Shown: positions 22,534 through 42,441, counted from the stretch's first letter. The stretch: 64,000 nucleotides of DNA from Rickettsiales bacterium (GCA_020054695.1 JAHXBT010000016.1:101680-165679), one strand, 5' to 3'. Notes: generated from the sequence alone by a model not told the origin. Translations and numbers: made by a program.

Positions 22534-23328
22534 ATGTCTAATATTAAAAATAAAAAAGTTACAACATTTAGTGAGGCATCAAAATTTTGGTGGTCTATTT
22601 TTTGGAGATCTCATTTTGTAAGTATAATTTTATTACTAATAATTACACTTATTTTATTCTTACTATCTCCAAATCAAGACGCCAGTTCTTTTACCCCAAC
22701 TGTTTTACAAATTATATATCCAGGTAGTTATCAGGCTATTACTTTTTTAATATTTATTTTAATTTTTTTTAGGATTTTAAGAAATAATGTTAATTCAACC
22801 AAGATTACAGCTATTTTTTGGTCATTTTTTTGGCGTTATGCCGTTGCTTTAACTACAATATATATAATATGGATATGTACTTTTTATTTAATTCTATCTC
22901 TATCTTTTAATATTAACCAAGAGCTATATATACCAAGGTGGAATTTTGATACCAATCGTTTTTTGGTTTGTTTAATATCTACAATTGTCGGTATCATTGT
23001 TATATCTTATATTTGTTTACTAAATCGTAAGTCTATTTCTATATTAATTGCTATCTGTATAATATTTGCTTTAATTGCACATATATTATCACCATTTTTC
23101 TTCTTATTTTTATATAAATCAGATTCATTCTTTATTCATAGTTATCCAACTACTTTTAACAATACCGTTGATAATCTTTTAATGGCGATGTATATGTTTG
23201 TTATTATTGGAGCTATTTCTTTAAAAATTAGAATTTATCAAATTATTTTTAATAAAGGATTGGTTAAATATTCTAAAGTTAAGAATTACAATATTACAAA
23301 AATTAAGATTGGTAAATTTTCTATATAA
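22534..23328 (+). CDS. Polytopic membrane protein, unknown function
   Basis: 264 aa with about 6-7 hydrophobic spans. Duplicated motif KFWWSIFWRSHF / AIFWSFFWRYAV. No recognisable family. Confidence 0.6.
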   Translation: MSNIKNKKVTTFSEASKFWWSIFWRSHFVSIILLLIITLILFLLSPNQDASSFTPTVLQIIYPGSYQAITFLIFILIFFRILRNNVNSTKITAIFWSFFWRYAVALTTIYIIWICTFYLILSLSFNINQELYIPRWNFDTNRFLVCLISTIVGIIVISYICLLNRKSISILIAICIIFALIAHILSPFFFLFLYKSDSFFIHSYPTTFNNTVDNLLMAMYMFVIIGAISLKIRIYQIIFNKGLVKYSKVKNYNITKIKIGKFSI

Positions 23329-25457: not shown

Positions 25458-26225
25458 ATGACCGAATTAAAAAATTTTAAAAATACTAAAAAAAAATCAT
25501 CAACAAAGATTTATAAAAAGAAAGGTCTGCTAGTAAAAAAATTTAAAAATTACAAATCAAGGAGTTACTCATTTTCAAGATCATTTATTGCATTAATATT
25601 TTTACTGGTTGGAATTGGCGGAACTTTATTAATGCATAGCTTTGCACATAAGATAGATAATAATTCTCATAAAAAAGTATTGGTGCATGATCAGCAGATA
25701 AAAATGCTACAAGCTTGGCAAAATGATGTTAATGAGTGGATAAAGAAATCTCGTACAAAGAAAATGTATAGGTCAGATAAATTCTTTGATGATTTTTATT
25801 TGGATTCATTTGTTCCATTTTCTAATATGGGCGATGTCAACAAAAGAATAAGAGAAAGATTCTCCAACTTTGACCAATTATTTAATAATCATTTTGATGG
25901 CTATAGGAGATCCAATCACTCACCTCTTTCTAGCAGAGCGTATATTTCTCAAAAGGAAGATGATGAATTTATTTATTATCAGCTAAATTTTAGGGGATTT
26001 TCTAAGGATGGTATATCTGTAAAAATTGAGGATGGGTTGATAACCTTCTTTTCAAAAAGGATAGAGGATAGTACATCGGAAGATAATAATTTTAAATCGC
26101 GATCAAAAATAGAGTCAAATTTCTTTTATTCATTTTTAGTTCCAAAAAATATTGATCTATATAATCCTGAGATAATCAGAGAGCGCGGTAAAATAATTGT
26201 TAAATTCAAAAAGAATAAAGATTAA
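25458..26225 (+). CDS. Membrane-anchored Hsp20/alpha-crystallin-domain-like protein
   Basis: 255 aa. Lys-rich N-terminus, one TM segment (FIALIFLLVGIGGTLLMHSF), and a C-terminal ACD-like pattern ISQKEDDEFIYYQLNFRGFSKDGISVKIEDGLITF...FFYSFLVPKNIDLYNPEIIRERGKIIVKFKK. Confidence 0.65.
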   Translation: MTELKNFKNTKKKSSTKIYKKKGLLVKKFKNYKSRSYSFSRSFIALIFLLVGIGGTLLMHSFAHKIDNNSHKKVLVHDQQIKMLQAWQNDVNEWIKKSRTKKMYRSDKFFDDFYLDSFVPFSNMGDVNKRIRERFSNFDQLFNNHFDGYRRSNHSPLSSRAYISQKEDDEFIYYQLNFRGFSKDGISVKIEDGLITFFSKRIEDSTSEDNNFKSRSKIESNFFYSFLVPKNIDLYNPEIIRERGKIIVKFKKNKD

Positions 26226-29048: not shown

Positions 29049-30134
29049 TTGTATAATAAAATATTTTCCAATCTACTATTAAAAATTAAGATAGGCTTTT
29101 TTTTATTATTATTTGCCCATCTATCCATAGCCGAGGAATCTAAGTATATCATCAGTAATATTACAATTAATGAATCTGCTGAATCTGCCAGCAAAGCTCA
29201 AGAAATTGCTAATATCAATGCTAATAGAGAGGCTTTTCTCAGGTTACTTAAGAAATTATCAATTAATGAATCATTTTCTGATTATATTGATGATGATCAG
29301 TTGGAAGAGGCAATTTATGCTAAAACTATTTCTAATGAAAAGATAGCTGATAGTTGGTATAAGGCAACATTTAATATAGAATTTACAAAAGGTTATATTG
29401 ATAATTTATTAGAAAGTAAGGATTTTGGTTTGGATCTTGATCTGAGTAAAAAATATTTAATATTTCCAATCCAAATTTTAGATTCACAATCCAAAATATG
29501 GCATAATAACAATACGTGGTTTAATGCTTGGCGTTCTGTGCTATCAGAAAATGAGTCAGAAGTTATTAAAATTCCTGCCGGTGATATTGACGACATATCA
29601 CTTTTAAAATCGTTTGATTTAGAAACTATAAAATATCTTGATATCAAAGATATTGTTAAAAAATATAATTCTAAAGTTGCTGTTTTTATTGATATCTATA
29701 TTGATCATTTAGAAAACAATGTTGCTATCAATATTACTATGGTTAAAAAATTTACCAAGAAGAATATAAGGCTTAGCTTTGTTAATATTAATGATATCAA
29801 AAAGGAGAGATTGTATAATATTATTGTCCAAAAAATTATTGAATATTTAAGTGAAAAAGATCTCTCGGAAGTTGATAAACAATATAAAAAGAAAGATAGC
29901 AATAATATTTATATAGATATATTACCATCTTCTTTAAAATCCTGGATTACTTTTGAAAAAAAACTTAAAAAAGTAAATAATCTTGATTTTAAAGTAATAT
30001 CAGTATCTGCAGATTTAATTAAATTATCAATCAAGCCGCTAGAAGGGGTGGATATTTTAAAATATCTAGAAGATTATGGTGTTTTTGTTGAAAAGAGTGA
30101 AGATAGTGCAATTTATTATATTGCGCTTGATTGA
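29049..30134 (+). CDS. Secreted hypothetical protein
   Basis: 361 aa with a TTG start. Signal peptide FFLLLFAHLSIAEE. No motif recognised. Confidence 0.6.
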   Translation: MYNKIFSNLLLKIKIGFFLLLFAHLSIAEESKYIISNITINESAESASKAQEIANINANREAFLRLLKKLSINESFSDYIDDDQLEEAIYAKTISNEKIADSWYKATFNIEFTKGYIDNLLESKDFGLDLDLSKKYLIFPIQILDSQSKIWHNNNTWFNAWRSVLSENESEVIKIPAGDIDDISLLKSFDLETIKYLDIKDIVKKYNSKVAVFIDIYIDHLENNVAINITMVKKFTKKNIRLSFVNINDIKKERLYNIIVQKIIEYLSEKDLSEVDKQYKKKDSNNIYIDILPSSLKSWITFEKKLKKVNNLDFKVISVSADLIKLSIKPLEGVDILKYLEDYGVFVEKSEDSAIYYIALD

Positions 30135-30147
30135 TAGCGCTTTTTTT
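30123..30147 (+). terminator. Rho-independent terminator candidate separating the upstream gene from the PKS block
   Basis: Stem gcgct (30123-30127) / agcgc (30136-30140), loop tgattgat (contains the stop codon), followed by ttttttt (30141-30147). Confidence 0.45.
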
Positions 30148-30513
30148 CAAAAAAACCTTCGATAACCTAGCTTTTATCTCAAAACATTCAAATTTATTAT
30201 TAATTTTAAAAGCTGGTTATGGTAAGTCATTAATAGAATTTTTTTATATCAAGATAATTTATATTTTTAAATCAATGATTGCCTAATAAGCTTGTGAAAT
30301 ACATTAATATTTATTATACAAGACATTTTAACTTAATTTGTATTAAAGTATATTAAGTTATAATTAAGTATCTCTTAAAGAAATCAACCAAATTGCTTGA
30401 ATTTTATATTTTAGAGTGCGATATTATTTTAATCTACAAATGAATTAAAATGTAAGTTTGTTACAAGTTTTGCATAGGGTAATATGAGTTTAAAAATGTA
30501 ATAACATAAAAAA

Positions 30514-33500
30514 GTGACTAAAAAAACCATTAAAAACAGCAAAAATTATTCTATCAATAAATTTCCAATAGCAATTATTGGAATGGGCGTAAGGTATCCT
30601 GGTAATATTTGTGGATCTGATGGATTATGGAAGGCTCTAATTGAAGGAAGAGATTCTATCACTAGTATCCCTGCTGATCGATGGAATATAGCAAAATATT
30701 ATGATCCAGATCCCAATAAATCAGATAAAATTAAAACTAAAAAAGGCGGATTTATCTCTGGCATGAAGAAGTTTGATGCTTCATTCTTTGATATTTACCC
30801 CAATATTGCTGAAAAATTAGATCCAAGACAAAGACATTTATTAGAAGTTGTGTATGAGTCTTTGGAGGATGCTAATATTACCATGGAGCAAATCAATAAT
30901 AGTAAAACATCTGTAATTACTGGTGTATTTTTAGGTGATGAAGGTAAAAAATATGCAGGTAGTGATATTTCTAATATTAATGCTCATAGTTTAATGGGTA
31001 GTTCTGATGTTACTGTTCCCGCTAGGATTGCTTATCAATTTAATCTTAAAGGACCTACTCTCTCAGTTGATACTGCTTGCTCATCATCTTTGGTAGCTGT
31101 GCAAATTGCTTGTAGTAATATTTGGCTTGGCGATGCTGATATGGCAATTGCTGGAGGTGTTAATATTATGTCCAGTCATGAGCATTTTATCGGTTTGTCC
31201 AAGGGTGGTTTTTTAAGCCCCGATGGCTATTGTAAAAGTTTTGATGCTGATGGCAAGGGCTATGTTCGTGGTGAGGGTGCTGGTGTTGTAATTTTGAAGC
31301 CTTTGGATCAGGCCGAAAAGGATGGTAATAATATTTACGCAGTCATTAAAAATGCTGTAGTTAATTTTGATGGTTATACTAAAGATGGCATGACTGTTCC
31401 AAATGAATTTGCTCAACAAAAAATGTTGGAGGATGCTTATAGTGGAGCAAATATTGATCCAAGTGAAGTTGATTATGTAGAGGCTCACGGTACTGGTACT
31501 ATAGTTGGAGATCCTAAAGAATGTACAGCCTTTGGTCATGTTTTTGCTAAGGATAGAGATGTTAAAAAACCTTTAATTATTGGTTCAATTAAAAGTAATA
31601 TTGGTCATACTGAAGCTGTTGCAGGTATTGCTGGTTTAACCAAATTAGCACTTTGCATTAAAAATAAGCAAATTCCTCAAAATTTACATTTTAACAATCC
31701 TAATCCCAAGATTAAATTTGATGAGTGGAAGTTAAAAGTACCAACCAAATTAATGAATTGGCCAGGTAAAAAAGACAAAAAGGCAATTGCTGGTGTTAAT
31801 TCTTTTGGTGCTGGCGGTACTAATGCTCATATTGTTTTAGAAGAATATATTTCTGATTTTCAACAGGAATTATCAAAACAAGATAAGAATGAATATAATT
31901 TTCCTTATGTTTTTTCATTATCAGCAGCTTCTCTGGAATCCTTAAAAAAACTGGCCGAAAGATATATAGATTTTATTAATAATTCTCAAGATGATCTATT
32001 AGATATTTGTTATTCTATTCTTAAAAACAGATCTAATTTGAAAGAAAAATTAGTAATAATTTGTAATTCAAAAGAAGATTTAATCAAAAAATTATCTTTA
32101 TATATATCTGATAGTAAAAATCCCCAAATTATTACTGGCAAGACTAAAAAAGATGAAAAATTAAAAATTGCCTTTATTTGCTCAGGTCAAGGTCCTCAAT
32201 GGTATGGAATGGGCAGGCAATTAATGGCAAAATCACAAATATTTGCTGACATTTCTAACAAAATTGACAGAATATTCTTTAAAATTGCTGGCTATTCAAT
32301 TTTAGAAGAAATGAGTAAAGATTCTGCTGATTCTAAAATATCTGAAACTAGAATTGCACAACCAGCAATAATGATCATACAAATTGGTTTAATTGAAATT
32401 TGGAAATCTTTTGGGATTGATCCTGATGGCATAGTTGGTCATTCAATAGGTGAAGTTGCTGCGGCTTATGGCGCTGGCTCTCTTAATTTAGAACAGGCGG
32501 TTAATGTTATTTATAATAGGTCAAAGGAGCAAGATAAGGCCTCTGGTAAAGGTAAAATGTTAGCAACCTCATTACCACTTTCAAAATCAATACAAATTAC
32601 CCAAAAATATAACAATCAAGTTTCAATTGCCGCTCTTAACGGTCCAGAATCAACAGTTTTATCAGGTGATATTGTGCCTTTGGAGGAAATTGCTCAGGAG
32701 TTGGAGGAAAAAGAAATATTTAACCGCTTCTTAAAAATTAATGTTCCTTTTCATAGTCATTATATGGAAATGACTAAGGAAGAAATGCTAAAATCTTTAA
32801 AAGATTTAGAACCTAAAAGAGCTAACATTTCTTTATATTCAACAGTAACTGGTTTGAAAGAAAGTGGCTTAAATTTAAATGCCAATTATTGGTATAAAAA
32901 TGTTAGAGATACAGTTTATTTTGTTAATGCCATCGAGAAAATGATCAATGATGGTTTTAATTATTTTATCGAGATTGCGCCACATCCTATTTTGGGTGCT
33001 GGAGTTAATGATATGTTATCTGTTCAGAAAAAAGATGGCTATGTTATATCCTCTCTTTCTAGAAATATCAAAAACTTTGAGGCAGGAATTGAATATGAGG
33101 TTAATGATATTTTATCTGCTACTGCTAAGACCCAAATAGCAACTCAAAAAGTCAATTTACTTAATATTTATAAACAATATAATCCCAAATCAATTAAACT
33201 ACCAAATTACATTTGGAATCATAAGGAATATTGGTCTGAAAGCAAAGAACATGAGATATCTAGGTTAAAAAAGCAAAAACATCCTTTTATTAAAAATATA
33301 ATTAAAAGCTTAAGTGATAAAAATTCTGCTATTATAGAATTAGATCTTAACCCTAATAAACATCTATTTTTAAATGATCATAAAATTGATGGGGTAATAG
33401 TTATACCAGGTACCGCACATTTTGAAATTGCAACCGCAATTGGCAAAGAAATTTATGGCGATAAGTTTTCACATTTAGAAGATATTCATTTTAAAAAGGC

Positions 33501-36500
33501 TTTATTTTTACCAGATGATGGTTATATAGAGGCAAGATTAGAGTTAAAATCATCAGGAAAATATACTATTCATAGCAAATTAAATAATAAGTGGACTAAT
33601 AATAGTAGCGGTAAAATATGTCATAGTAATAAAAAACAAGTTAAGAAATTTGAAAAATTAGAAGATCTAAAAAAAAGAATTAATAAAGAATTATCAAAAA
33701 AAGAATTTTATAATAAGTTGCAAGAAAGAGGTTTATTTTATGGAGCTAATTTTAGAATAGCACAAAAGATATATTGTAATGAAAATGAAATTTTATCCGA
33801 AATAGGAATAGATAAAAATCAAGAAATTGACGAATATAATGTTATTCCAAATATATCAGATTGCTGTTTACATACAATTTTATCTAATAATATTAATAAT
33901 ATATATTTACCCGATAGGTTTAATAAAATTACAATCTTTAATAAACCAACAAAAATTGTATTTAGCTATATTAGAATTATCAAACATAGTACAAAATTTT
34001 TATTGGGTGATATATTTGTGTATGACTACAAAGGTAACCCGGTATTTTGCATTGAAGGTATGCAGCTAAAACTACTAGAAAATTTTAGCAAAAAAAAACA
34101 GAATCATAATTATGAGTTCCAGTGGTTTAAATCAGATATTTCAATTAATAATAAGGCTGTAGATAAAAATTTTTATATTATAATTTTTATAAATAACAAT
34201 CTAATAAATTTATTAGGTGATAAATTATTAGATATTGGGAATAACATAATATTTATTAATAAGGGTATCAAATTCAAAAAAGAATCTGAATATAATTATA
34301 TTATCAATCCAAATTCTCAAGAGGATTTTAGTAGACTATTCCATCATCTGGCAAAAGAAAATGTCAATATTGCAAAAATAATTAATTTTTGGCCAATTGA
34401 TGGTATAATTAGCAATAATGACAATTGTTACAAATTAAGTCAAGAATCACAAAATTTACTTCTTCCAAATCTTTATTTATTACAAGAAATAGCAAAATTT
34501 GAAAATAATAAAATATATCTCTATCAAATTACTCAAAATGCTGACATAGTTGACGATAAAAAAGATAAAAATATAAATTTTTTACAAGGATCGCTATATG
34601 GTATGGGTCGAGTCTTTATGAATGAATATCCTAATCATCACATAAGGATGATTGATATTGGTTGTCCTAAAATAGAAGATAACATTAATCTCATAATAGC
34701 TGAAATTAATAAGGAAGAACAAATACCTTATGAGACAGAAATAGCAATTAGGGATTACGGTAGATTTGCTCGTAAATTAGTTGAATTTGATCAAAAAAAA
34801 CAGCCTAATAGGGATTTAGCATTTACACCGAATTCAACCTATTTAATTACTGGTGGGCCCAGCGGACTTGGTCTTACTTTGGCTCAGTGGCTTTTTGAAG
34901 AAAAAAACATCAAAAATTTTGCTCTAATGAGTAGATCAGGACCAAAATATGATCAAGATAAGAAAATTATTTCCCAGATGCAGCAAAAGGGAGCAAATAT
35001 TATTTGGCAAGAAGTAATAGCTGATGTAACTAAAGAAAATGAGGTACAAAAAGCCATAGATTATATTAAAGATAATATGCCGCCTTTAAAGGGCATTATC
35101 CATTCTGCTGGATTATTGGATGATTCTTCTATTCCTAATATGAATAAAGAAAAATTCTTTAAAATATTTAATCCCAAAGCCTTAGGGGGGTGGAATTTAC
35201 ATAGAGCAACCTTAGATATTAAATTAGATTTATTTTTATTAATATCCTCAGTTTCTTCAATTATTGGAATTGCTGGACAAACAAATTATTCTTCAGCTAA
35301 TAATTTTTTAAATTATTTATCTCTTTACAGGAATTGTAGCAATGAGAGTTCTAGAGCTATTTGTTTTGGCATGTTATCAGGTTCTTTTGCTGGAATGTCA
35401 AAACAGCAATCTGGCTTAGAAGATTTAACCGCCAAAACAGTAGGACTGATTGCGATGGATAAAAAATTGATGTTAAATAGCATGGAAGATACTTTATACA
35501 ATTCTAATTCATGTTATTATATGATATCTTCTATGAATTGGAGCATATTCTTTGAATCACATTCAGCATCTAGTAATATATTATTATTAGGTGACATATT
35601 GAAGAATAATTCTAAAATATTAAATAAAAAATTACTACCTATAGAAAAAATATTATCCAGTAAAAATGAGGATGCAATAGATCTAATTAAAAATTCAATT
35701 AAAAATATTCTAACAAAAATATTGGGAACATCCATGAATGAGATAGACTCTAATATATCCATATCTAATCTAAATTTAGATTCATTAATGCTTAATCAAC
35801 TTCGCAGCTCCATTCAATCTGAATTTGAATTGTCAATACCGCTAATGCAACTAGTCAAAGGACCAAACATAAATGAGCTGTCTAGAAAAATATTAAAAAC
35901 TATATTGCAACAAGAAAAGGTTGATTATTTTAACGATTCGGATATAGAAATATCAAAGAATAAGTGGTTAATAAAAAGAAAAAATTCACATAAAACAAAA
36001 TATAAAATAATTTGCCTCCATCCAGTTGGTGCTGGGGCATCTATTTTTAGTCATTTTATTTTTAATCCTCCCAAAAATACGCAAATTATTGCCTTACAAA
36101 TGCCAGGTAGAGAAAATAGAATGGATGAAGATTATTATTATAATAATATGGAAAAATTAGTAGAAGATCTATCTAATCAAATAATAGCGGAAATATCTGG
36201 TCCAACAATATTTTGGGGCCATAGTTGGGGCGGTGTAACGCTTTATGAGGTAATAAAATATTTACGCCGTAATAATATTAAAGAATATCAAAATATTAAA
36301 CAATTAATAGTAACAGGTTCAATTGCACCACAATTAACATTACCTTGGAAGGATAGAGATTCTATTAAACAAACAGCAAGAAAAGATAATACTATAGATA
36401 AAATATTATCAACAGTTTCATATATTGATGATGAAAATTATTTGCGCAGCATAATACCGATCATGAAAAAAGATATGGAAATGATAATGACTTATAAATA

Positions 36501-36705
36501 TAAGGAAGAAGAAAAATTAAATATACCCATTTTAGCTTTTGGCGCTAAAGAAGATGATGTAGTATTGTTAGATGAATTAAAAGAATGGGAAAAGCAAACA
36601 AATGATAATTTTCAATTATATGAGGTAAGTGGCGATCATTGGTTTTTAAGTAGAAATAAGGAGTTTATTACAGAAAAAATTGCAGAGAATATCATGGGGC
36701 TTTAA
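30514..36705 (+). CDS. Single-module type I polyketide synthase, KS-AT-DH-KR-ACP-TE
   Basis: 2063 aa with a GTG start; the first in-frame ATG already lies inside the KS motif IAIIGMGVRYPG. KS: DTACSSS (Cys189), EAHGTGT, NIGHTEAVAG. AT: GHSIGE (Ser644), VPFHSH. DH: HKIDGVIVIPG (His956) and DCCLH. KR: TGGPSGLG (~aa1445), LLDD, Y1592 in NYSSAN. ACP: LDSL (Ser1757). TE: ICLHPVGAGAS, GHSWGG (Ser1904), GDHWF. Confidence 0.95.
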   Translation: MTKKTIKNSKNYSINKFPIAIIGMGVRYPGNICGSDGLWKALIEGRDSITSIPADRWNIAKYYDPDPNKSDKIKTKKGGFISGMKKFDASFFDIYPNIAEKLDPRQRHLLEVVYESLEDANITMEQINNSKTSVITGVFLGDEGKKYAGSDISNINAHSLMGSSDVTVPARIAYQFNLKGPTLSVDTACSSSLVAVQIACSNIWLGDADMAIAGGVNIMSSHEHFIGLSKGGFLSPDGYCKSFDADGKGYVRGEGAGVVILKPLDQAEKDGNNIYAVIKNAVVNFDGYTKDGMTVPNEFAQQKMLEDAYSGANIDPSEVDYVEAHGTGTIVGDPKECTAFGHVFAKDRDVKKPLIIGSIKSNIGHTEAVAGIAGLTKLALCIKNKQIPQNLHFNNPNPKIKFDEWKLKVPTKLMNWPGKKDKKAIAGVNSFGAGGTNAHIVLEEYISDFQQELSKQDKNEYNFPYVFSLSAASLESLKKLAERYIDFINNSQDDLLDICYSILKNRSNLKEKLVIICNSKEDLIKKLSLYISDSKNPQIITGKTKKDEKLKIAFICSGQGPQWYGMGRQLMAKSQIFADISNKIDRIFFKIAGYSILEEMSKDSADSKISETRIAQPAIMIIQIGLIEIWKSFGIDPDGIVGHSIGEVAAAYGAGSLNLEQAVNVIYNRSKEQDKASGKGKMLATSLPLSKSIQITQKYNNQVSIAALNGPESTVLSGDIVPLEEIAQELEEKEIFNRFLKINVPFHSHYMEMTKEEMLKSLKDLEPKRANISLYSTVTGLKESGLNLNANYWYKNVRDTVYFVNAIEKMINDGFNYFIEIAPHPILGAGVNDMLSVQKKDGYVISSLSRNIKNFEAGIEYEVNDILSATAKTQIATQKVNLLNIYKQYNPKSIKLPNYIWNHKEYWSESKEHEISRLKKQKHPFIKNIIKSLSDKNSAIIELDLNPNKHLFLNDHKIDGVIVIPGTAHFEIATAIGKEIYGDKFSHLEDIHFKKALFLPDDGYIEARLELKSSGKYTIHSKLNNKWTNNSSGKICHSNKKQVKKFEKLEDLKKRINKELSKKEFYNKLQERGLFYGANFRIAQKIYCNENEILSEIGIDKNQEIDEYNVIPNISDCCLHTILSNNINNIYLPDRFNKITIFNKPTKIVFSYIRIIKHSTKFLLGDIFVYDYKGNPVFCIEGMQLKLLENFSKKKQNHNYEFQWFKSDISINNKAVDKNFYIIIFINNNLINLLGDKLLDIGNNIIFINKGIKFKKESEYNYIINPNSQEDFSRLFHHLAKENVNIAKIINFWPIDGIISNNDNCYKLSQESQNLLLPNLYLLQEIAKFENNKIYLYQITQNADIVDDKKDKNINFLQGSLYGMGRVFMNEYPNHHIRMIDIGCPKIEDNINLIIAEINKEEQIPYETEIAIRDYGRFARKLVEFDQKKQPNRDLAFTPNSTYLITGGPSGLGLTLAQWLFEEKNIKNFALMSRSGPKYDQDKKIISQMQQKGANIIWQEVIADVTKENEVQKAIDYIKDNMPPLKGIIHSAGLLDDSSIPNMNKEKFFKIFNPKALGGWNLHRATLDIKLDLFLLISSVSSIIGIAGQTNYSSANNFLNYLSLYRNCSNESSRAICFGMLSGSFAGMSKQQSGLEDLTAKTVGLIAMDKKLMLNSMEDTLYNSNSCYYMISSMNWSIFFESHSASSNILLLGDILKNNSKILNKKLLPIEKILSSKNEDAIDLIKNSIKNILTKILGTSMNEIDSNISISNLNLDSLMLNQLRSSIQSEFELSIPLMQLVKGPNINELSRKILKTILQQEKVDYFNDSDIEISKNKWLIKRKNSHKTKYKIICLHPVGAGASIFSHFIFNPPKNTQIIALQMPGRENRMDEDYYYNNMEKLVEDLSNQIIAEISGPTIFWGHSWGGVTLYEVIKYLRRNNIKEYQNIKQLIVTGSIAPQLTLPWKDRDSIKQTARKDNTIDKILSTVSYIDDENYLRSIIPIMKKDMEMIMTYKYKEEEKLNIPILAFGAKEDDVVLLDELKEWEKQTNDNFQLYEVSGDHWFLSRNKEFITEKIAENIMGL

Positions 36706-37441
36706 TCAATCTTTAACAAAATTATTAATAAATAATAAGTTTGTTAATTTAGATTTGATTCTAAATAATAAAAATAATAATTTTGCTGCCAATATTGCCT
36801 TTTGTAGCTCCGATTTATTTGGAGTTACAAAAAGTCAATTATTAAAATATTTATCAAAAGATGAGATTAAAGATTACAATAATTTAGAAAATGACTTTTT
36901 AAAGAAAAAATATTTAGATAGTAATGTCTGTGCCAAATATGCTATTTCTCAAATTGCCAAAATTGACGATTTGTCAAAAATTAAAATTCATAGAGGTATA
37001 TTTGGTCAGCCATATATCATTGCAGCAAAAACGCAAAAATTTGTAATTTCTATTGCTAATAAAGTAATTAATGGCAATAATATCACCTGCGCTATTGCCT
37101 TTGAACAACAATTTCCCATGGCCATTGATTTGGAGAATATGGATAATAAAAATAGCAGCCATATTGTAAGTCAAATGACAAATTTTGAAATAGAAAATTT
37201 TGGTGTATCGCATCAGGATTTAATTAGAATATGGAGTGCAAAAGAAGCTCTTAGTAAAGTAACATTATGTGGTTTAAATGCTAATTTTAAAATATTTGAG
37301 ATATCACAAATAATTCAATGCAACAATTATATTGAATATTATTTTAAGAACTTCTCTCAATATAAAGCTCATTCCAAAGTAATAGATAGTATACTTATTA
37401 CCATAATTTATCATAAAAATTATAATATTCGAAATAATTAA
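36680..37441 (+). CDS. Sfp-type 4'-phosphopantetheinyl transferase
   Basis: 253 aa. Motifs AIDLE and WSAKEALSK. There is no in-frame ATG before residue ~146, so the TTG at 36680 (26-nt overlap with the PKS 3' end) or another non-ATG codon must be the start. Confidence 0.85.
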   Translation: MQRISWGFNQSLTKLLINNKFVNLDLILNNKNNNFAANIAFCSSDLFGVTKSQLLKYLSKDEIKDYNNLENDFLKKKYLDSNVCAKYAISQIAKIDDLSKIKIHRGIFGQPYIIAAKTQKFVISIANKVINGNNITCAIAFEQQFPMAIDLENMDNKNSSHIVSQMTNFEIENFGVSHQDLIRIWSAKEALSKVTLCGLNANFKIFEISQIIQCNNYIEYYFKNFSQYKAHSKVIDSILITIIYHKNYNIRNN

Positions 37442-37443
37442 AT

Positions 37444-40400
37444 ATGGTTACTTTTACTCTAATATCATTTTTTATTACTTTTTGTACATGCTTCCTATTA
37501 TCAATATTACTCGTAACCTGTGGGAAGAAATATATACAATTTACAATATTTAATATTAATTTATGTATTTGGACTTTATTTAATATTTTATATATTTCTG
37601 CAGAATCATTTGAGTCGTCACTTATATATGCAAAATTTGCCAGCGCTTCCATTGTACTCATACCATATTTATTCTTTAAAACAACGCTATCACTTTCAAA
37701 CACAAGAATAAAGCCAATATATAATATAATAAATAATATTATTGCTATATCACTTTCGCTTTCAATGTTTACGGATCTGATGATAAGGGGGGTTAGACCT
37801 TTTATGGATTTTAAATTTGCACCAGAAGCAACTATGTTTTTTTACATATATTGCATATATCTTGTAATGGTAGTGGTAATTGGACATATATTTTTGTACA
37901 AATCTATTAAGTATAATTATAAAAATAAGTTTATATTTTATGCTTATATAATAGGATGGAGTGGAGGTGTGACAACCTTACCAGTTTATCTTGGAATTTC
38001 AATATATCCCTTCTCTGTAATATTGGTAGCAGTTTATACACTATTTGTATCATATGCCCTTATGCAACATAGAATACTTGGCCTTTACTTAACTATAATT
38101 AATTTATTGATAAAAGCATTATGCTTTGCAACGATATTCTTTTCTTATTTAATTTCTAAAAAAATATATGATTTAATATTTATAAATGATCATTATGCAT
38201 ATATTATATTTAACATGCTGTACATTATGTTTTCTATACAATTGTATCAAAGTTTAGTTCAGAAGTTAAAAGTAGTAACGGAAAAAATGGCATTAGGTAT
38301 ACCATATAATAAATTAGAGATAAGAAATAATATTGGTAAACATATATTAGATATTGTAGAAATTGATCAATTATCAAAACAAATAAAAAATATTATTGAA
38401 AAACAAATAGGTGTTAAAACTATCTCTTTTTATGTTGCATCAGAATTAGGAATTAAAGAACATAATGATCCTAATATAAAATTTGTAAAATATTATGGTC
38501 AAGATATAGAAAGGAAGTATATAATAGAAATGCAGCGATCTATTCAGGATGAAAAATTCTCCCTATCAACAAAATTTAATGAAGTTGATTATAAATTCCG
38601 CAAAATAATGGGTGGCGCAGATTTTCAAGGATTAGTACCCTTTTTATATAATAATAAAGTTGTGGGCTTTTTGACTCTACAATCTCGCCCTAAAAAAAGA
38701 AATTATTTTTATTATGAAGATATGGAATTATTTGATGAAGTTTCTAATAAAACTGGCTTTGCCTTAGAAAGGGTTAGATTACATTTACAATTTATGGAGG
38801 AAAAGGAATTAGCATTAATATCTCTTGCTGGTTCTATTGCTCATGAATTGCGTAACCCACTTGGCGCAATTAAACTGACAACTGATAATTTAACCTCTAT
38901 AAAAGAAAATTCACGATGTGATGAGAATGTAAAAGAAGTAATTAATAAAGATAGTGAGTTTAAGGAAACAATAAATAATTCAGATATAAAAATTAATAAT
39001 TTTAAGAATCAAATTAATAAAACTATTGATTTAGCTACTGATATTATTGATATGACTTTGCATGAGATTAGTGGAAAAAGATTAACCAGGGAGGATTTTG
39101 ATTACTATTCTGCTAAAAAATCCGTCTTAGATGCTATAATGCTTTATGGTTATGATAGTAATGAAGAAAAAGATAAGGTTACTATTAATTTATCTGATGA
39201 TAAAAATATTACAGCAAGTAAGGCTGGCGATCAAACTATATCAGTAAATAATATTAAGGAAGATAATGATTTTATTATTTTAACCAATAACACTGGTTTT
39301 AAATATATAATTTTTAATTTAGTAAAAAATGCTTTATATTATTTAAGCAAATATCCAGATTCTGATATTGCCATTTCTTTTGAGAAGGAAAAAATAATTG
39401 ATCAAAAAACAATCAAAAAATTTAATATATCTAATCACAATATTAAAATAGAAGATTCAAAACCAAGCACTAATTTTAAAGGTATTTATAAATATAATGT
39501 TATTAATATTATTGACACCGGACCCGGAATTAAAGAAGAGATAATTACAAAAATTTTCCAACCATATACGTCTTATAAAAAAAATGGTACAGGAGTTGGT
39601 TTAGATTTTTGTAATAGAATGATGGGTAATTTTGGCGGCGCTATAATTTGTGAAAGTAAATTAGGAAAATATACTAAATTTAGTTTATTATTTCCAATAT
39701 TGTCAGAACAAGAAGAGAAAGTTGCAATTGGTCAAATTTTAGAGCTTGAAGATAAAATTGCACAAGCAGAGAAAAAAGGAGAGAATCTATCATATGTAGA
39801 AAAATCTTTGGAGAAAAAACCTAAAAAGAATATTTTACTTATTGATGATGTTAAGGTTAATATTGATATATTGGCCAGGGATTTAAAAAATAAATGCCCT
39901 AATTTTGAAGTTGTTATTATGACTTGTCCGGTTGAAGCATTTAAATTAATTAAAGTTAAGCAAGAGGAAGATGAGCAGTTTGATTTAATTCTTACAGATA
40001 TTGAAATGCCTTTAATGAATGGCATAGATTTAATTAATAAAGTTAGAAATGAATTAAAAATCTCAAAATATGATTTGCCTATCTTGGTTTATGGTTCTCG
40101 TGAAGATAAGATAACTATTAATGAAGCTCTAGATGCCGGTTGTAATTCTTATTATATGAAGCCAAAAGATTTAAGATTTATTGCTAGAAATATTTCTAAA
40201 TGGGTTTTAAATGATTATATGCCATCTAAGACTATTAATAATAAGGAAATTATTATTAATAATCAGACTTTAAAAGACCTTAATATTATCATAGCTGATG
40301 ATCAATTAATGAATTTAATGTTGGTATCTAATAAAATTTCTAATGCCGGTGCTAATATTTTTAAATGTAATGATGGTGGGGATATAATAAAATTAATGAC

Positions 40401-41055
40401 AGAAGATCCAGATAAATACCATCTGATTATTACAGATATTAATATGAAAAGAATAGGTGGTATTGAGGCGGCAATGAAGGTTAGAAATATTGAAGCTAAA
40501 CATAATAAGCAGTATAATAGTGATAATAAAATACCCATCATTGCCCTTTCTGGTGATAATGATCAAAAATTTGTTATGAATTTATTAAATAATTCAATTG
40601 ATGATTACATGATTAAGGGTAGTGATCCTAAAAATATTATTAAATTATCAAGATTTTGGGTCGATTATAGGTTTTGTAACCACGATATATTATCCAAAGA
40701 TAATAAACATAATGGCAATAATATATTAAGAAGTGATTTTATATCATTATTTTCTAACAAATCTAGTGCTATAAAAGTCATTAATGTTTTTAAGAAAGAG
40801 TCAGATAGTATTATTCAGGAAATAAGAGGTAATAAAACAGATGTGGTTGAATTACAAAAATCAATTCACAAATTAAAAGGTTCTTCAGATTTAATTGCTA
40901 CTAGAAAATTATTTGAATATTTATCAGAAATTAATATTATTACTAAAGATGGTAAATTACCTGATAATAATAATTTTGATAGTATAATTGAAGAGTATGT
41001 TAATGAAGCGATAGACATTATGAAGTTAGAAATAAAGCGTAATTTCCAAATTTAA
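37444..41055 (+). CDS. Hybrid sensor histidine kinase: ~8-9 TM sensor, GAF-like, HisKA, HATPase_c, REC, REC, HPt
   Basis: 1203 aa. Hydrophobic N-terminal ~270 aa ending YALMQHRILGL. H-box SIAHELRNPLGAI (His467). N-box NLVKNALYY; G1 DTGPGI (~aa691); G2 GTGVGL. REC1 LILTDIEMP (Asp852), YMKP. REC2 LIITDINM (Asp998). HPt SIHKLKGSS (His1142). Confidence 0.92.
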   Translation: MVTFTLISFFITFCTCFLLSILLVTCGKKYIQFTIFNINLCIWTLFNILYISAESFESSLIYAKFASASIVLIPYLFFKTTLSLSNTRIKPIYNIINNIIAISLSLSMFTDLMIRGVRPFMDFKFAPEATMFFYIYCIYLVMVVVIGHIFLYKSIKYNYKNKFIFYAYIIGWSGGVTTLPVYLGISIYPFSVILVAVYTLFVSYALMQHRILGLYLTIINLLIKALCFATIFFSYLISKKIYDLIFINDHYAYIIFNMLYIMFSIQLYQSLVQKLKVVTEKMALGIPYNKLEIRNNIGKHILDIVEIDQLSKQIKNIIEKQIGVKTISFYVASELGIKEHNDPNIKFVKYYGQDIERKYIIEMQRSIQDEKFSLSTKFNEVDYKFRKIMGGADFQGLVPFLYNNKVVGFLTLQSRPKKRNYFYYEDMELFDEVSNKTGFALERVRLHLQFMEEKELALISLAGSIAHELRNPLGAIKLTTDNLTSIKENSRCDENVKEVINKDSEFKETINNSDIKINNFKNQINKTIDLATDIIDMTLHEISGKRLTREDFDYYSAKKSVLDAIMLYGYDSNEEKDKVTINLSDDKNITASKAGDQTISVNNIKEDNDFIILTNNTGFKYIIFNLVKNALYYLSKYPDSDIAISFEKEKIIDQKTIKKFNISNHNIKIEDSKPSTNFKGIYKYNVINIIDTGPGIKEEIITKIFQPYTSYKKNGTGVGLDFCNRMMGNFGGAIICESKLGKYTKFSLLFPILSEQEEKVAIGQILELEDKIAQAEKKGENLSYVEKSLEKKPKKNILLIDDVKVNIDILARDLKNKCPNFEVVIMTCPVEAFKLIKVKQEEDEQFDLILTDIEMPLMNGIDLINKVRNELKISKYDLPILVYGSREDKITINEALDAGCNSYYMKPKDLRFIARNISKWVLNDYMPSKTINNKEIIINNQTLKDLNIIIADDQLMNLMLVSNKISNAGANIFKCNDGGDIIKLMTEDPDKYHLIITDINMKRIGGIEAAMKVRNIEAKHNKQYNSDNKIPIIALSGDNDQKFVMNLLNNSIDDYMIKGSDPKNIIKLSRFWVDYRFCNHDILSKDNKHNGNNILRSDFISLFSNKSSAIKVINVFKKESDSIIQEIRGNKTDVVELQKSIHKLKGSSDLIATRKLFEYLSEINIITKDGKLPDNNNFDSIIEEYVNEAIDIMKLEIKRNFQI

Positions 41056-41061
41056 GCAAAT

Positions 41062-41958
41062 ATGACAAATAAAAAATTAATTTTATCTTCCTTATCGGTA
41101 ATAATTATAGCTATTATTTTTGCTACATTATATAAATATTTTTATCCTGATAATGTTAAATTAGAACAAAAACATATAATAGTTAAAAAAGACAGTAAGG
41201 ATATTATTATAGCAACTTTTGGTAATGGAAAATCTATTACTAAGGCACAATTAGAAACAGAAATAGAGAAAATATATATACAAAATCCAAAGCTAAGGAA
41301 TGTGGAATTTAATAATTTACCTTTTTCCCAAAAAGAATCTATTATTAGACAAATTATTCTTAAAGAATTAAGTTATAAACAAGCTAAAAGACAGAATATT
41401 CACAGATCTAATGAATATAAAAAAACAAAAAGATTGTTTGAAAAAGAATTATTGCAGCAAAAATTATTTGTTGCCATTTCTCAAGATGCATCTTCGGAAG
41501 AAAGATTGCAAAAAAAATATGACGAACTTAAAACAGATTTGCAAGATAAAAAGGAAGTAAGAATTAGATATATTGCATTAAAAACAGAGAAGGAAGCAAA
41601 GTCCCTTTATAAAAAATTAAAGAGAAATCCAGAATCATTTGCTAGTCAGGCTAAGAGCAAATCGATTGATAAATCTACTTCAGATAATGGTGGTGATTTA
41701 GGTTTTGTTGTTGAGAGTAATTTGCCAGAAAACATTACAAAGGAAATTAATAAATTAAAAAAAGGTAAAATATCTAAGGCATTTAAGATTGATAATGTAA
41801 ATTGGATAATTATCAAGCTAGAGGAGAGAAGAAAAGCAAAAGTGCCTGAATTTAATGATATAAGAGAAAAATTAGTTAAAGATTTGGGTAATGAAGCAAT
41901 AGAAAAATTCGCTACATCTAGTTTAGATAGTGCTAATATTAAGATTTTGCTAAAATAA
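41062..41958 (+). CDS. Membrane-anchored parvulin (PpiC-type) peptidyl-prolyl isomerase
   Basis: 298 aa. N-terminal TM segment, SurA/PpiD-like helical part, and a parvulin core with GGDLGFV. Confidence 0.8.
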   Translation: MTNKKLILSSLSVIIIAIIFATLYKYFYPDNVKLEQKHIIVKKDSKDIIIATFGNGKSITKAQLETEIEKIYIQNPKLRNVEFNNLPFSQKESIIRQIILKELSYKQAKRQNIHRSNEYKKTKRLFEKELLQQKLFVAISQDASSEERLQKKYDELKTDLQDKKEVRIRYIALKTEKEAKSLYKKLKRNPESFASQAKSKSIDKSTSDNGGDLGFVVESNLPENITKEINKLKKGKISKAFKIDNVNWIIIKLEERRKAKVPEFNDIREKLVKDLGNEAIEKFATSSLDSANIKILLK

Positions 41959-42441
41959 TTATTACAAAAAGCGCAAACTAATCCAGCTACACAGGGTATA
42001 AGCCATGTCCAATATGGAGCTAAAACTGTCTGGCTACTAAAAACTACCGCTTAACCTGTTGGATATCTATTCCAGAGTGTCTTATAAAATATTGCCTTTA
42101 TTTGAGAGCAATAAGTACTCCTTTCTTGTAATTATTAGTAAGATAGAGAAGTTGAACATTGTTATAAATTATAATATTACTCATATCAAACTTTTCTAGA
42201 TAGTAAGAAAAATTGACAAAGAGAAAACCTGTTAGGTATTTTTAATAATAAAGAAAATAATTTGGATAATAAATTTTAGATAAAATTAACTAAAAAAGTT
42301 ACTTCTTAAAATTACAATGTAAGCGATATCAATTGGTGGTTTATAATTTAATTATTATTATAATAATTGTTTCAATATTGTCTTATAATTTTAAATTCAT
42401 AATATAAAGTAATATTTTTAAAAATACTTTTTTACTTATAA

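What the first reader, a model, noticed from the sequence alone, without database searches (positions are those of the whole stretch)
30514..36705. PKS domain logic: intact KS-AT-DH-KR(B-type)-ACP-TE, no loading module, no ER, so probably iterative
Seen in sequence:
- All catalytic signatures look intact: KS Cys189/His/His, AT GHSIGE with VPFHSH (closer to the malonyl HAFH motif than to YASH), and DH HxxxGxxxxP plus DxxxH.
- The KR has the LDD motif (LLDD) and the S/Y/N triad. The ACP has DSL. The TE has GHSWGG and GDHWF.
- The ~250 aa between DH and KR (about 34081-34834) has no NADPH or SAM motif and looks like the structural pseudo-KR half.
- The KS begins ~17 aa from the N-terminus, so there is no loading didomain.

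Established knowledge: KS-AT-DH-KR-ACP is the order of bacterial iterative type I PKSs of the 6-methylsalicylate and naphthoate type (for example ChlB1 and NcsB), and of reducing modules that yield trans-enoyl products.

Inference: the product is either a small aromatic acid or a short unsaturated/hydroxy acyl chain released as a free acid by the fused TE.
Basis: partly seen in the sequence, partly recalled or inferred. Interest (0 to 1): 0.7.

Follow-up and report, generated by a model that had tools for sequence, protein, structure and literature searches.

The report
Polyketide synthase paired with membrane sensor
The gene is an intact one-module polyketide synthase from an uncultured marine bacterium, and it travels with its own activating enzyme and a membrane sensor kinase whose sensing half varies between near-identical strains in step with the synthase's product-shaping domains, which suggests a strain-specific chemical signalling system.

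Summary
ORF 30514-36705 encodes an intact 2063-aa KS-AT-DH-psiKR-KR-ACP-TE synthase. It has no loading module, no ER and no methyltransferase.

The enzyme is not close to 6-methylsalicylate or naphthoate synthases. It sits with 100% bootstrap inside a family of stand-alone, FAS-like KS-AT-DH-ER-KR-ACP-TE synthases. In its subclade the ER is first eroded and then deleted several times independently.

The PKS forms a conserved cassette with an Sfp-type PPTase (36680-37441) and a 7TM-GAF hybrid histidine kinase (37444-41055). I found this trio in 8 distinct cassettes with unrelated flanks. In a ninth locus only a KS stub remains and the kinase carries two nonsense codons.

A sister strain has the same locus with 97-100% identical flanks, KS-AT, TE core (89% in its first 150 nt) and kinase core. 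In that strain the DH-to-ACP block (33300-36000) and the PPTase plus kinase sensor block (36600-38700) are only 47-82% identical.

This mosaic resembles pherotype loci such as comQXP. Best reading (0.5): the PKS makes an unbranched unsaturated acid, released by hydrolysis, which the adjacent kinase senses. The product structure and the sensing are both untested.

The parts
30123..30513 (+). Terminator-like hairpin of the upstream gene (30123-30140 plus a T run), followed by a 370-bp AT-rich intergenic region that probably holds the cassette's own promoter
   Evidence: No terminator-like site lies between the PKS, PPTase and kinase genes.
30514..36705 (+). Type I PKS, 2063 aa: KS-AT-DH-psiKR-KR-ACP-TE
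30565..31848 (+). KS domain (C189, H325, H365)
   Evidence: It is 98-100% identical in sister strain L097.
32164..33108 (+). AT domain (GHSIGE S644, R669, VPFHS). The motifs indicate malonyl specificity.
   Evidence: Specificity is inferred from motifs only.
33274..34098 (+). DH domain (H956, D1116)
34099..34800 (+). KR structural subdomain (psiKR). It is not an ER or methyltransferase remnant.
34801..35613 (+). Catalytic KR, B-type (LLDD 1534-1537; S1579, Y1592, N1596)
35656..35913 (+). ACP (S1757)
35986..36702 (+). Type II TE-like thioesterase domain (S1904, D2014, H2042)
36680..37441 (+). Sfp-type 4'-phosphopantetheinyl transferase (AIDLE, WSAKEALSK). It overlaps the PKS stop by 26 nt.
   Evidence: It is conserved next to the PKS in all related loci.
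37444..38703 (+). Sensor half of the hybrid histidine kinase: a multi-helix (7TM-type) membrane bundle plus a cytoplasmic GAF domain (aa 1-420)
   Evidence: model pLDDT 87; the C-terminal part matches GAF domains
38704..41055 (+). Transmitter half of the kinase: HisKA (H467), HATPase, REC (D851), REC (D997), Hpt (H1142)
33300..36000 (+). Hypervariable allelic block V1 (DH, psiKR, KR, ACP): 47-82% nt identity to sister strain L097, whose flanks are 97-100% identical
36600..38700 (+). Hypervariable allelic block V2 (last 20 aa of the PKS, the PPTase, the kinase sensor half): 51-77% nt identity to L097
41062..41958 (+). PpiC-type rotamase gene 7 bp downstream. It may be co-transcribed here but is not part of the conserved cassette elsewhere.

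Best explanation
Shown:
- The ORF is an intact stand-alone type I PKS, KS-AT-DH-psiKR-KR-ACP-TE.
- It belongs to an uncharacterised family of single-module, FAS-like bacterial synthases (KS-AT-DH-ER-KR-ACP-TE, each with its own PPTase).
- In its subclade the ER is eroded and then deleted.
- In that subclade the PKS always sits with an Sfp-type PPTase and a 7TM-GAF-HisKA-HATPase-REC-REC-Hpt hybrid kinase. The three genes form a compact cassette that occupies different genomic sites.
- Two co-circulating alleles of this very locus differ sharply in two places only: the DH-to-ACP block, and the PPTase plus the kinase's sensor half. KS-AT, the TE, the kinase transmitter and the flanks are almost identical.

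Inferred:
- The dedicated PPTase activates the ACP.
- The module is primed from a common acyl or malonyl thioester and uses malonyl-CoA, most likely over several rounds.
- The B-type KR and the DH leave trans double bonds or hydroxyls, and nothing reduces them.
- The type II TE-like domain hydrolyses the chain to a free unbranched unsaturated (polyenoic or hydroxy-enoic) acid.
- This lipid-like product is the ligand of the adjacent membrane kinase, which passes the signal by phosphorelay to an unidentified response regulator.
- The variable DH/KR block would set the exact product structure and the variable sensor would set which structure is recognised. This would give strain-specific 'dialects', as in peptide pherotype systems. 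The variable ACP and PPTase would co-adapt as a docking pair.
For: Architecture and intact catalytic residues. psiKR.

Family placement:
- The nearest relatives are 2.4-kb-longer... no: the nearest relatives are about 2400-aa ER-containing, TE-terminated synthases from Bacteroidota, Planctomycetota and others.
- NJ tree of KS-AT with 200 bootstraps: single-module TE superclade 100%, kinase-linked clade 100%, ER-less P0005 sister to ER-sized P0006 100%, ER-less P0044 group inside the ER+ clade 92%.

ER decay:
- P0006 and P0007 score 25-27 bits on ADH_zinc_N (cut-off 31.8), against 86 bits for P0012, and have lost the GGVG motif.
- P0008 keeps a 189-aa remnant.
- The window protein and five others have none, and the deletion junction in the P0044 group differs.

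Cassette conservation:
- PKS, PPTase and kinase are adjacent in the window, L097, L083/L092, L091, L094, L084 (order PKS-HK-PPT), L086 and L099.
- PKS identity in these loci is 49-77% and kinase identity 32-79%. Where flanks are visible they are unrelated, except in L097, which is the same locus.

Joint decay:
- L093 keeps only a 69-aa KS stub directly upstream of a kinase homologue that has two in-frame TAA codons and a small HisKA deletion.

Allelic mosaic against L097:
- Flanking proteins are 99.4-99.7% identical.
- nt identity is 97-100% up to 33300, 47-82% over 33300-36000, 89-100% over 36000-36600, 51-77% over 36600-38700, and 97-100% (89% in the first 150 nt) from 38700 on.
- The breakpoints fall at the DH start, the TE start and the GAF/DHp junction.
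- The L097 allele occurs as a full-length protein in at least four assemblies, so it is not an assembly chimera.
- Catalytic residues are invariant in both alleles.

Sensor: high-confidence multi-TM plus GAF model.

Precedents:
- The orphan KS-AT-DH-KR-ACP PKS of C. acetobutylicum works iteratively on malonyl-CoA. Its C14 acid products regulate differentiation (PMC5686105).
- comQXP pherotype clusters are 65-70% identical in strains with about 100% identical gyrA (PMC4408185).
Against: - No product, chain length, iteration count, secretion or ligand binding has been tested. Everything about sensing rests on gene linkage and co-variation.
- The two variable blocks are separated by only 600 bp, so hitch-hiking of one with the other cannot be fully excluded.
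- Only one same-locus allele pair was available.
- One kinase homologue (L095) has no PKS in the 7.5 kb upstream, although the contig ends inside the kinase.
- No response regulator or exporter is encoded in the cassette.
- Quorum sensing is not obviously useful to a dilute planktonic cell recovered from the 0.22-0.45 um fraction.
- An ER acting in trans could change the product class.
Confidence: 0.5

Rival explanations
1. Regulation only. The PKS makes an unsaturated fatty acid for the cell's own membrane or envelope. The multi-TM kinase senses membrane state or an external cue and controls PKS expression, like DesK-DesR controlling a desaturase. The product is not a signal.
For: - The ancestral enzyme is FAS-like.
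- The sensor is mostly membrane-embedded.
- Tight operon-like packing.
- Joint decay in L093 also fits a regulator and its target.
Against: A homeostatic sensor and a housekeeping lipid synthase are not expected to be 47-82% identical in exactly the processing domains and the sensor half while the rest of the locus is 97-100% identical. The cassette is patchy and changes genomic site, which is unlike a core membrane function.
Confidence: 0.2
2. Same cassette logic, different chemistry. The module acts once on a fatty-acyl primer from primary metabolism and releases a trans-2-enoic (or 3-hydroxy) fatty acid, a DSF-like molecule, rather than working iteratively.
For: - A KS-AT-DH-KR(B)-ACP-TE module gives a 2-enoyl product per round.
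- MAS-type relatives take long acyl primers without a loading domain (plus established knowledge).
- The kinase layout (membrane sensor, HisKA, HATPase, REC, Hpt) resembles that of the DSF receptor RpfC (plus established knowledge).
Against: The cassette has no acyl-activating enzyme. The family ancestor has the full FAS domain set with a TE, which is typical of iterative enzymes. The only characterised orphan analogue is iterative.
Confidence: 0.25
3. The product is an antagonistic (antimicrobial or allelopathic) polyene. The allelic diversity reflects an arms race, and the kinase only autoregulates production.
For: Hypervariable modules between conserved flanks also mark toxin and bacteriocin loci (established knowledge). 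Polyenoic acids can be bioactive.
Against: The cassette has no immunity, efflux or tailoring gene. This model does not explain why the sensor half co-varies.
Confidence: 0.12
4. One reading: an iterative 6-methylsalicylate or naphthoate-type synthase that makes a small aromatic acid.
For: The domain order KS-AT-DH-KR-ACP is shared, and there is no loading module.
Against: - A fused TE is present.
- All close relatives are fully reducing FAS-like enzymes, and the ER is seen decaying within the clade.
- The KS-AT scores best against modular PKSs, CurL and mycocerosic acid synthase.
- The DH has a complete dehydratase motif set.
Confidence: 0.03
5. The mosaic is neutral. A divergent segment was imported by recombination, and its domain-level boundaries are coincidental.
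For: Only one same-locus pair was compared. Recombination between marine strains is common (established knowledge).
Against: - Two separate divergent blocks flank a conserved TE island, so at least two exchanges are needed.
- Breakpoints fall at domain borders (DH start, TE start, GAF/DHp junction).
- The same three segments are also the fastest-diverging in every other cassette pair.
- Catalytic residues remain invariant.
Confidence: 0.15

Closest known systems
Clostridium acetobutylicum CA_C3355, an orphan iterative type I PKS that makes clostrienoic acid and clostrienose (PMC5686105)
   Same: - A single orphan KS-AT-DH-KR-ACP module with no loading domain and no ER.
- A malonyl-specific AT.
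- Shown to act iteratively.
- Its product is an unsaturated C14 acid that regulates cell behaviour.
   Different: - It has no fused TE, no dedicated PPTase and no adjacent kinase.
- It needs unlinked tailoring enzymes.
- No allelic receptor co-variation is known for it.
- Sequence relatedness to the window protein was not tested here.
Stand-alone FAS-like KS-AT-DH-ER-KR-ACP-TE synthases with an adjacent PPTase, from Bacteroidota and others (uncharacterised; e.g. P0012 from Fulvivirgaceae, P0019 from Saccharicrinis)
   Same: Same family: 40-56% identity across all shared domains, the same type II TE-like terminus, the same PPTase neighbour, and a 100% bootstrap clade.
   Different: They keep an intact ER (86 bits, GGVG present) and have no kinase neighbour. 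The window subclade has an eroded or deleted ER and has the kinase.
Mycocerosic acid synthase, MAS-like PKSs and animal FAS
   Same: Single-module iterative megasynthases that begin with the KS and have no loading domain. KS-AT-DH is similar (593 bits to MAS, about 400 to animal FAS). The position of psiKR is the same.
   Different: They contain an active ER and make saturated chains. MAS uses methylmalonyl-CoA and has no TE.
ComQXPA (Bacillus) and agrBDCA (Staphylococcus) pherotype loci
   Same: Genes that make the signal, and the membrane sensor half of the kinase, are hypervariable between near-identical strains. The kinase transmitter half and the flanks are conserved (the part about the sensor half of ComP and AgrC is from established knowledge).
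   Different: Their signals are ribosomal peptides. Here the putative signal is a polyketide or fatty acid, the variable 'synthase' part is a set of domains inside a megasynthase, and the host is a Gram-negative marine alphaproteobacterium.
CqsA/CqsS, LqsA/LqsS and RpfF/RpfC (lipid-like autoinducers sensed by membrane hybrid kinases)
   Same: An adjacent synthase and a multi-TM (hybrid) kinase, a hydrophobic acyl-derived ligand, and a phosphorelay output (established knowledge; layout).
   Different: Their synthases are a PLP-dependent acyl-transferase or a crotonase, not a PKS. The sensor here has no detectable relation to them, and it carries an extra GAF domain and two REC domains.
6-Methylsalicylate and naphthoate-type iterative PKSs (ChlB1, NcsB, AviM)
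   Same: The domain order KS-AT-DH-KR-ACP and the absence of a loading module.
   Different: They have no TE, their 'DH' serves product release or programming, and their products are aromatic. The window protein's relatives are fully reducing FAS-like enzymes.

Membership tests
Type I PKS, cis-AT reducing module | KS Cys-His-His, AT GHSxGE with Arg, DH HxxxGxxxxP with DxxxH/Q, KR Rossmann motif with Ser/Tyr/Asn, ACP DSL | tested here: met
Stand-alone FAS-like single-module synthase family (KS-AT-DH-ER-KR-ACP-TE plus PPTase) | KS-AT groups with family members to the exclusion of multimodular PKSs | tested here: met
   100% bootstrap
Stand-alone FAS-like single-module synthase family (KS-AT-DH-ER-KR-ACP-TE plus PPTase) | Type II TE-like C-terminal domain and an adjacent Sfp-type PPTase | tested here: met
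Stand-alone FAS-like single-module synthase family (KS-AT-DH-ER-KR-ACP-TE plus PPTase) | ER domain between psiKR and KR | tested here: not met
   The ER is cleanly absent between residues 1429 and 1430. It is eroded or partly deleted in sister lineages.
6-MSAS / naphthoate-type iterative aromatic PKS | Ends at the ACP with no TE | tested here: not met
   A TE is present at 1831-2059.
6-MSAS / naphthoate-type iterative aromatic PKS | KS clusters with ChlB1, NcsB, AviM | not testable with these tools
   No reference sequences were available. Indirectly unlikely, because all neighbours are FAS-like.
Enediyne PKSE / PUFA PfaA | Domain order KS-AT-ACP-KR-DH(-PPTase), or tandem ACPs | tested here: not met
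   The order differs and there is one ACP. TIGR02813 scores 403 bits against a cut-off of 1010.
Iterative PKS (functional class) | The same module performs several extension rounds | not testable with these tools
   Supported only by the lack of any other module or loading enzyme and by precedent.
Signal-receptor (pherotype-type) cell-cell signalling locus | Synthase and receptor genes adjacent and inherited together | tested here: met
   8 distinct cassettes and 1 jointly decayed locus
Signal-receptor (pherotype-type) cell-cell signalling locus | Signal-determining parts and the receptor's sensor half are hypervariable between close strains, while the transmitter half and flanks are conserved | tested here: met
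   (one allele pair); general trend
Signal-receptor (pherotype-type) cell-cell signalling locus | The product is released and activates the cognate receptor specifically | not testable with these tools
   Needs biochemistry or genetics.
Hybrid histidine kinase phosphorelay | H-box His, N/G boxes, REC Asp, Hpt His | tested here: met
   H467, NLVKNA, DTGPGI, GTGVGL, D851, D997, H1142

The most novel reading that the evidence does not exclude
Free-living, low-GC marine alphaproteobacteria carry a polyketide-based, strain-specific cell-cell signalling (or kin-recognition) system. The product-shaping domains inside a single-module PKS (DH, KR, ACP) and the 7TM-GAF sensor of the adjacent hybrid kinase co-diversify into alleles. 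This would be the small-molecule counterpart of peptide pherotypes. It arose when a FAS-like synthase lost its enoyl reductase.
Probability: 0.4. Interest if true: 0.9.

Novelty: new variant of a known kind. Interest (0 to 1): 0.75.

Why it matters
- Type I PKSs are not known as autoinducer synthases paired with a kinase receptor, so this would add a new chemical class of bacterial signal.
- It would show that 'dialects' can be encoded by swapping processing domains within one megasynthase.
- It would give a testable case of signalling or kin discrimination in small planktonic marine bacteria, where the value of such systems is debated.
- The clade also offers a natural series for PKS evolution and engineering: ER intact, then eroded, then partly deleted, then cleanly excised at the psiKR/KR junction. 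There is also a natural DH-to-ACP block swap behind an unchanged KS-AT.
- Even if the signalling idea fails, the finding defines an uncharacterised, widespread family of stand-alone FAS-like synthases.

Tried and rejected
- The genome-contig scan with the PKS alignment used generic KS/AT patterns.
- The search for homologous proteins with the kinase sensor alignment returned essentially nothing, probably because of a word-index problem with TM-rich sequence. I replaced it with the exhaustive representative search (19 representatives at E<=1e-30, 208 at E<=1e-10).
- I first took PDB entries 7WVZ and 8I4Y for an aromatic iterative PKS. They are CalA3, a chain-release module, so the PDB offers no direct test against 6-MSAS-type enzymes.
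- I tested whether the TM-GAF neighbour of the 40% clade (L085) is homologous to the kinase sensor. There is no detectable similarity.
- I looked for tailoring, acyl-activating, efflux or response-regulator genes in the 64-kb window. All other ORFs of at least 150 aa with a Pfam hit are ordinary housekeeping-type genes.
- The promoter scan is uninformative at 28% GC (117 sites found, 99 expected).
- An assembly chimera as the cause of the mosaic is rejected, because the same 2069-aa protein occurs in several ENA and Logan assemblies.
- An alternative genetic code as the cause of the stops in L093 is rejected. Both internal stops are TAA, the same codon that ends that ORF.
- Taxonomy could only be narrowed to a deep-branching low-GC alphaproteobacterium. 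The best named UvrA hits, at about 70%, are Rickettsiales and Pelagibacterales MAGs.

Full report
**1. What is at the coordinates**

ORF 30514-36705 (+) starts with GTG and encodes 2063 aa. The window has about 28% GC throughout. The identical protein occurs on Tara Oceans, ENA, NCBI and Logan contigs, including a surface 0.22-0.45 um Tara sample.

Pfam gives these domains:

| Domain | Residues |
|---|---|
| KS | 18-393 |
| KS-AT linker | 396-532 |
| AT | 554-864 |
| DH | 923-1190 |
| PF21394 (KR structural half) | 1222-1329 |
| KR | 1441-1621 |
| ACP | 1729-1791 |
| TE | 1831-2059 |

There is no ER or methyltransferase hit.

**2. The DH-KR interval**

Three results show that residues about 1190-1440 are the KR structural subdomain.
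- The region has the PF21394 hit.
- In ER-containing homologues the roughly 318-348-aa ER is inserted exactly between window residues 1429 and 1430. Residues 1190-1429 align with the region before the ER.
- An AlphaFold2 model of aa 1191-1720 has mean pLDDT 67, and 76-93 over the first 100 residues. It superposes over about 490-500 columns on complete KR didomains such as DEBS KR1, macrolactin KR and tylosin KR1, with E down to about 1e-26.

**3. Specificity clues (motif-based inference)**

- The AT has GHSIGE, ETRIAQP and V-P-F-H-S, with the Phe of the malonyl-type HAFH motif. These are conserved in the whole family.
- The KR has LLDD. The final Asp of this motif is conserved in all relatives. 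This is a B-type KR, so the DH would leave trans double bonds.
- The TE is closest to stand-alone type II thioesterases: 6VAP, 3QMW and 3QMV, then RifR, human FAS thioesterase 2 and TesA. This points to hydrolytic release.

**4. Which family it belongs to**

The homology search shows that most hits at 37-56% identity are about 2400-aa KS-AT-DH-ER-KR-ACP-TE proteins. They come from Bacteroidota (Fulvivirgaceae, Cytophagales, Flammeovirga, Saccharicrinis), Planctomycetota and others.

An NJ tree of KS-AT with 200 bootstraps gives:
- a single-module, TE-terminated superclade separate from multimodular PKSs: 100%;
- a subclade holding the window protein with P0002-P0010: 100%;
- ER-less P0005 as sister of ER-sized P0006: 100%;
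- a second ER-less group (P0044, P0049, P0052) nested among ER+ Bacteroidota-type proteins: 92%.

Against the PDB, KS-AT scores best with a putative PKS KS (7ZMA), then DEBS (643 bits), CurL (595) and mycocerosic acid synthase (593). Animal FAS scores about 400. In Yersinia a relative is the terminal module of a two-module PKS. In Bacteroidota it stands alone with a PPTase.

Nothing links the protein to 6-MSAS or naphthoate synthases beyond domain order, and it has a TE that those enzymes lack. I could not run a direct tree against them because no reference sequences were available. The PDB entry I first took for one is CalA3.

**5. ER loss**

Within the window's subclade the ER is caught at every stage of decay.

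| Protein(s) | State of the ER |
|---|---|
| P0012 (outside the subclade) | Intact: 86 bits on ADH_zinc_N, 74 on ADH_zinc_N_2, GGVG present |
| P0006, P0007 | ER-sized insert, 25-27 bits on ADH_zinc_N (cut-off 31.8), GGVG replaced by TAIG or SAIG |
| P0008 | 189-aa remnant with no Pfam hit |
| Window protein, P0002, P0004, P0005, P0009, P0010 | None |

The P0044 group lost its ER independently and has a different junction. The simplest reading is that the ER was inactivated in the subclade's ancestor and then deleted repeatedly. On that reading the whole subclade makes non-enoyl-reduced products, unless an ER acts in trans.

**6. The cassette**

- The PPTase gene starts 26 nt before the PKS stop: 36680-37441, with Sfp-type motifs AIDLE and WSAKEALSK.
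- A 1203-aa kinase gene starts 2 nt after the PPTase stop: 37444-41055.
- The kinase has a 7TM-type N-terminus, a GAF-like region, HisKA (H467), HATPase, two REC domains (D851, D997) and Hpt (H1142).
- A model of aa 1-470 (pLDDT 87) shows a multi-helix membrane bundle with a short beta-hairpin loop, followed by a domain that matches GAF structures. The TM bundle has no convincing solved relative.
- The Tara gene call starts the kinase 107 aa too late. The longer start is conserved in homologues.
- A terminator-like hairpin closes the upstream gene, and 370 bp of AT-rich spacer precede the PKS.

The same three genes are adjacent in the following loci.

| Locus | PKS identity | Kinase identity | Note |
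|---|---|---|---|
| L083/L092 | 65% | 54% | |
| L091 | 63% | 53% | |
| L094 | 56% | 37% | |
| L084 | 49% | 32% | order PKS-HK-PPT |
| L086 | 55% | 39% | ER-sized PKS |
| L099 | 53% | 37% | ER remnant |
| L097 | 77% | 79% | same locus as the window |

Where flanks are visible they are unrelated, except in L097.

Every member of the subclade whose neighbourhood could be read has the kinase. Outside the subclade:
- Bacteroidota-type loci have only the PPTase.
- The independently ER-less P0044 group has a multi-TM plus GAF protein without a kinase domain. It is not detectably related to the kinase sensor.

In L093 only a 69-aa N-terminal KS stub remains, directly upstream of a kinase homologue with two in-frame TAA codons and a small HisKA deletion. 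The PKS and PPTase were lost and the kinase is decaying. L095 has a kinase homologue with no PKS in the 7.5 kb upstream, but the contig ends inside the kinase.

The sensor region is rare: 19 representatives at E<=1e-30 among 1.84 billion.

**7. The allelic mosaic**

L097 is the same chromosomal locus in a sister strain. Its upstream 361-aa protein is 99.4% identical and its rotamase 99.7% identical. The same esterase, GS, TruA and SppA genes follow downstream, with an extra IS30-like insertion.

Nucleotide identity in 150-nt windows:

| Window coordinates | nt identity | Content |
|---|---|---|
| 30000-33300 | 97-100% | spacer, KS, AT |
| 33300-36000 | 47-82% | DH, psiKR, KR, ACP (block V1) |
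| 36000-36600 | 89-100% | TE |
| 36600-38700 | 51-77% | PKS tail, PPTase, kinase sensor (block V2) |
| 38700-42100 | 97-100% (89% in the first 150 nt) | kinase transmitter, rotamase |

At the protein level:

| Segment | Identity |
|---|---|
| KS-AT (aa 1-900) | 98-100% |
| DH to ACP | 22-77% |
| TE | 90-100% |
| PPTase | 33% |
| Kinase aa 1-420 | 30-50% |
| Kinase aa 481-1203 (87% over 421-480) | 95-100% |

The breakpoints coincide with the DH start (aa about 929), the TE start (aa about 1829) and the GAF/DHp junction. The L097-type protein is present at full length in at least four other assemblies, so it is a real allele.

Its variable blocks are not close to any other sampled lineage (39-58% identity). 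In all other cassette pairs the same three segments are also the most diverged. Catalytic residues are invariant in both alleles.

This is the pattern described for pherotype loci. There the signal-making genes and the sensor half of the kinase are hypervariable between strains that are otherwise about 100% identical (PMC4408185; the detail about the ComP and AgrC sensor halves is from my own knowledge). The co-variation of ACP with PPTase fits a docking pair. The co-variation of DH/KR with the sensor fits a product and its receptor.

**8. Mechanism proposed**

Shown:
- the domain set;
- the eroded or deleted ER;
- the cassette and its joint decay;
- the mosaic.

Inferred:
- The PPTase converts the ACP to its holo form.
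- The PKS is primed from a common thioester and extended with malonyl-CoA, probably iteratively. No other module, loading enzyme or acyl-activating gene exists in the cassette or the window. The orphan KS-AT-DH-KR-ACP PKS of C. acetobutylicum is iterative and makes a regulatory C14 acid.
- KR and DH act without enoyl reduction, and the TE hydrolyses the chain to a free unsaturated acid.
- The acid is perceived by the 7TM-GAF kinase, which relays phosphate through REC and Hpt to an unknown regulator.

Chain length, number of rounds, double-bond pattern, export and ligand binding are all unknown.

**9. Rivals**

- A DesK-like arrangement, with the kinase only regulating a membrane-lipid synthase (0.2).
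- Single extension of a fatty-acyl primer to a DSF-like 2-enoic acid (0.25; this concerns the chemistry only).
- An antagonistic polyene (0.12).
- A neutral recombination mosaic (0.15).
- The aromatic 6-MSA-type reading (0.03).

The mosaic argues against the first, and the family placement argues against the last.

**10. Organism and context**

The best named UvrA hits, at about 70% identity, are Rickettsiaceae, Pelagibacterales and Rickettsiales MAGs. The window carries biosynthetic and envelope housekeeping genes: aroC, lysC, ilvC, dapA, trpD, PBP1, ffh, ftsY and ddl. The host is therefore a free-living, deep-branching, low-GC marine alphaproteobacterium. Related cassettes all come from marine metagenomes with 26-41% GC.

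**11. Verdict**

Its 'iterative, unsaturated free acid' branch is reasonable and its aromatic branch is not supported.

The PKS alone is a new ER-less variant of an uncharacterised FAS-like family. The PKS, PPTase and sensor-kinase cassette with pherotype-like alleles is, as far as the searched literature shows, undescribed.

Noticed in passing
L093 9706-13474: A decayed cassette. A 69-aa N-terminal KS stub lies directly upstream of a kinase homologue that has two in-frame TAA codons (11069, 11240) and a small HisKA deletion. The PKS and PPTase are gone.
   Followed up: yes
L097 14030-15097 (corresponds to window ~42118): An IS30-like transposase (HTH_38 plus rve) is inserted between the rotamase and esterase genes in the sister strain. 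It is absent from the window.
   Followed up: partly
L085 16607-18049 and L087 14602-16035: In an independently ER-less PKS clade (40% identity, 50-53% GC) the PKS neighbour is a 480-aa multi-TM, GAF_2 and coiled-coil protein without a kinase domain. This may be a second case of an ER-less PKS paired with a membrane GAF sensor. It shows no detectable homology to the kinase sensor.
   Followed up: partly
window 37444-37764 versus the Tara gene call (L081 17252): The public gene call starts the kinase 107 aa downstream and so loses the first conserved TM helices. A 101-aa antisense ORF (37398-37703) is called there instead and is probably spurious.
   Followed up: partly
P0006, P0007, P0008 (relatives, not in the window): These are ER domains in successive states of decay: below the Pfam cut-off with GGVG lost in P0006 and P0007, and a 189-aa remnant in P0008. 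They form a natural series for how a PKS loses a domain.
   Followed up: yes
L089 1187-15179 (Yersinia kristensenii): A family member serves as the terminal, fully reducing module behind an AprA-like (GNAT/methyltransferase) loading module. The family therefore also occurs in a two-module assembly line.
   Followed up: no
window 51734-52753: An AI-2E family transporter gene lies about 10 kb downstream of the cassette. The family name alone is not evidence of a link to signalling.
   Followed up: no
window 25458-26225, 22534-23328, 5148-6164, 49839-50852, 62046-62612: Five ORFs of 188-338 aa have no Pfam hit. The ORF at 22534-23328 looks like a multi-pass membrane protein.
   Followed up: no
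window 8740-11865: A prepilin peptidase gene is followed by a 776-aa protein with an 'atrophied bacterial Ig' domain. This may be a pilus- or surface-related pair.
   Followed up: no
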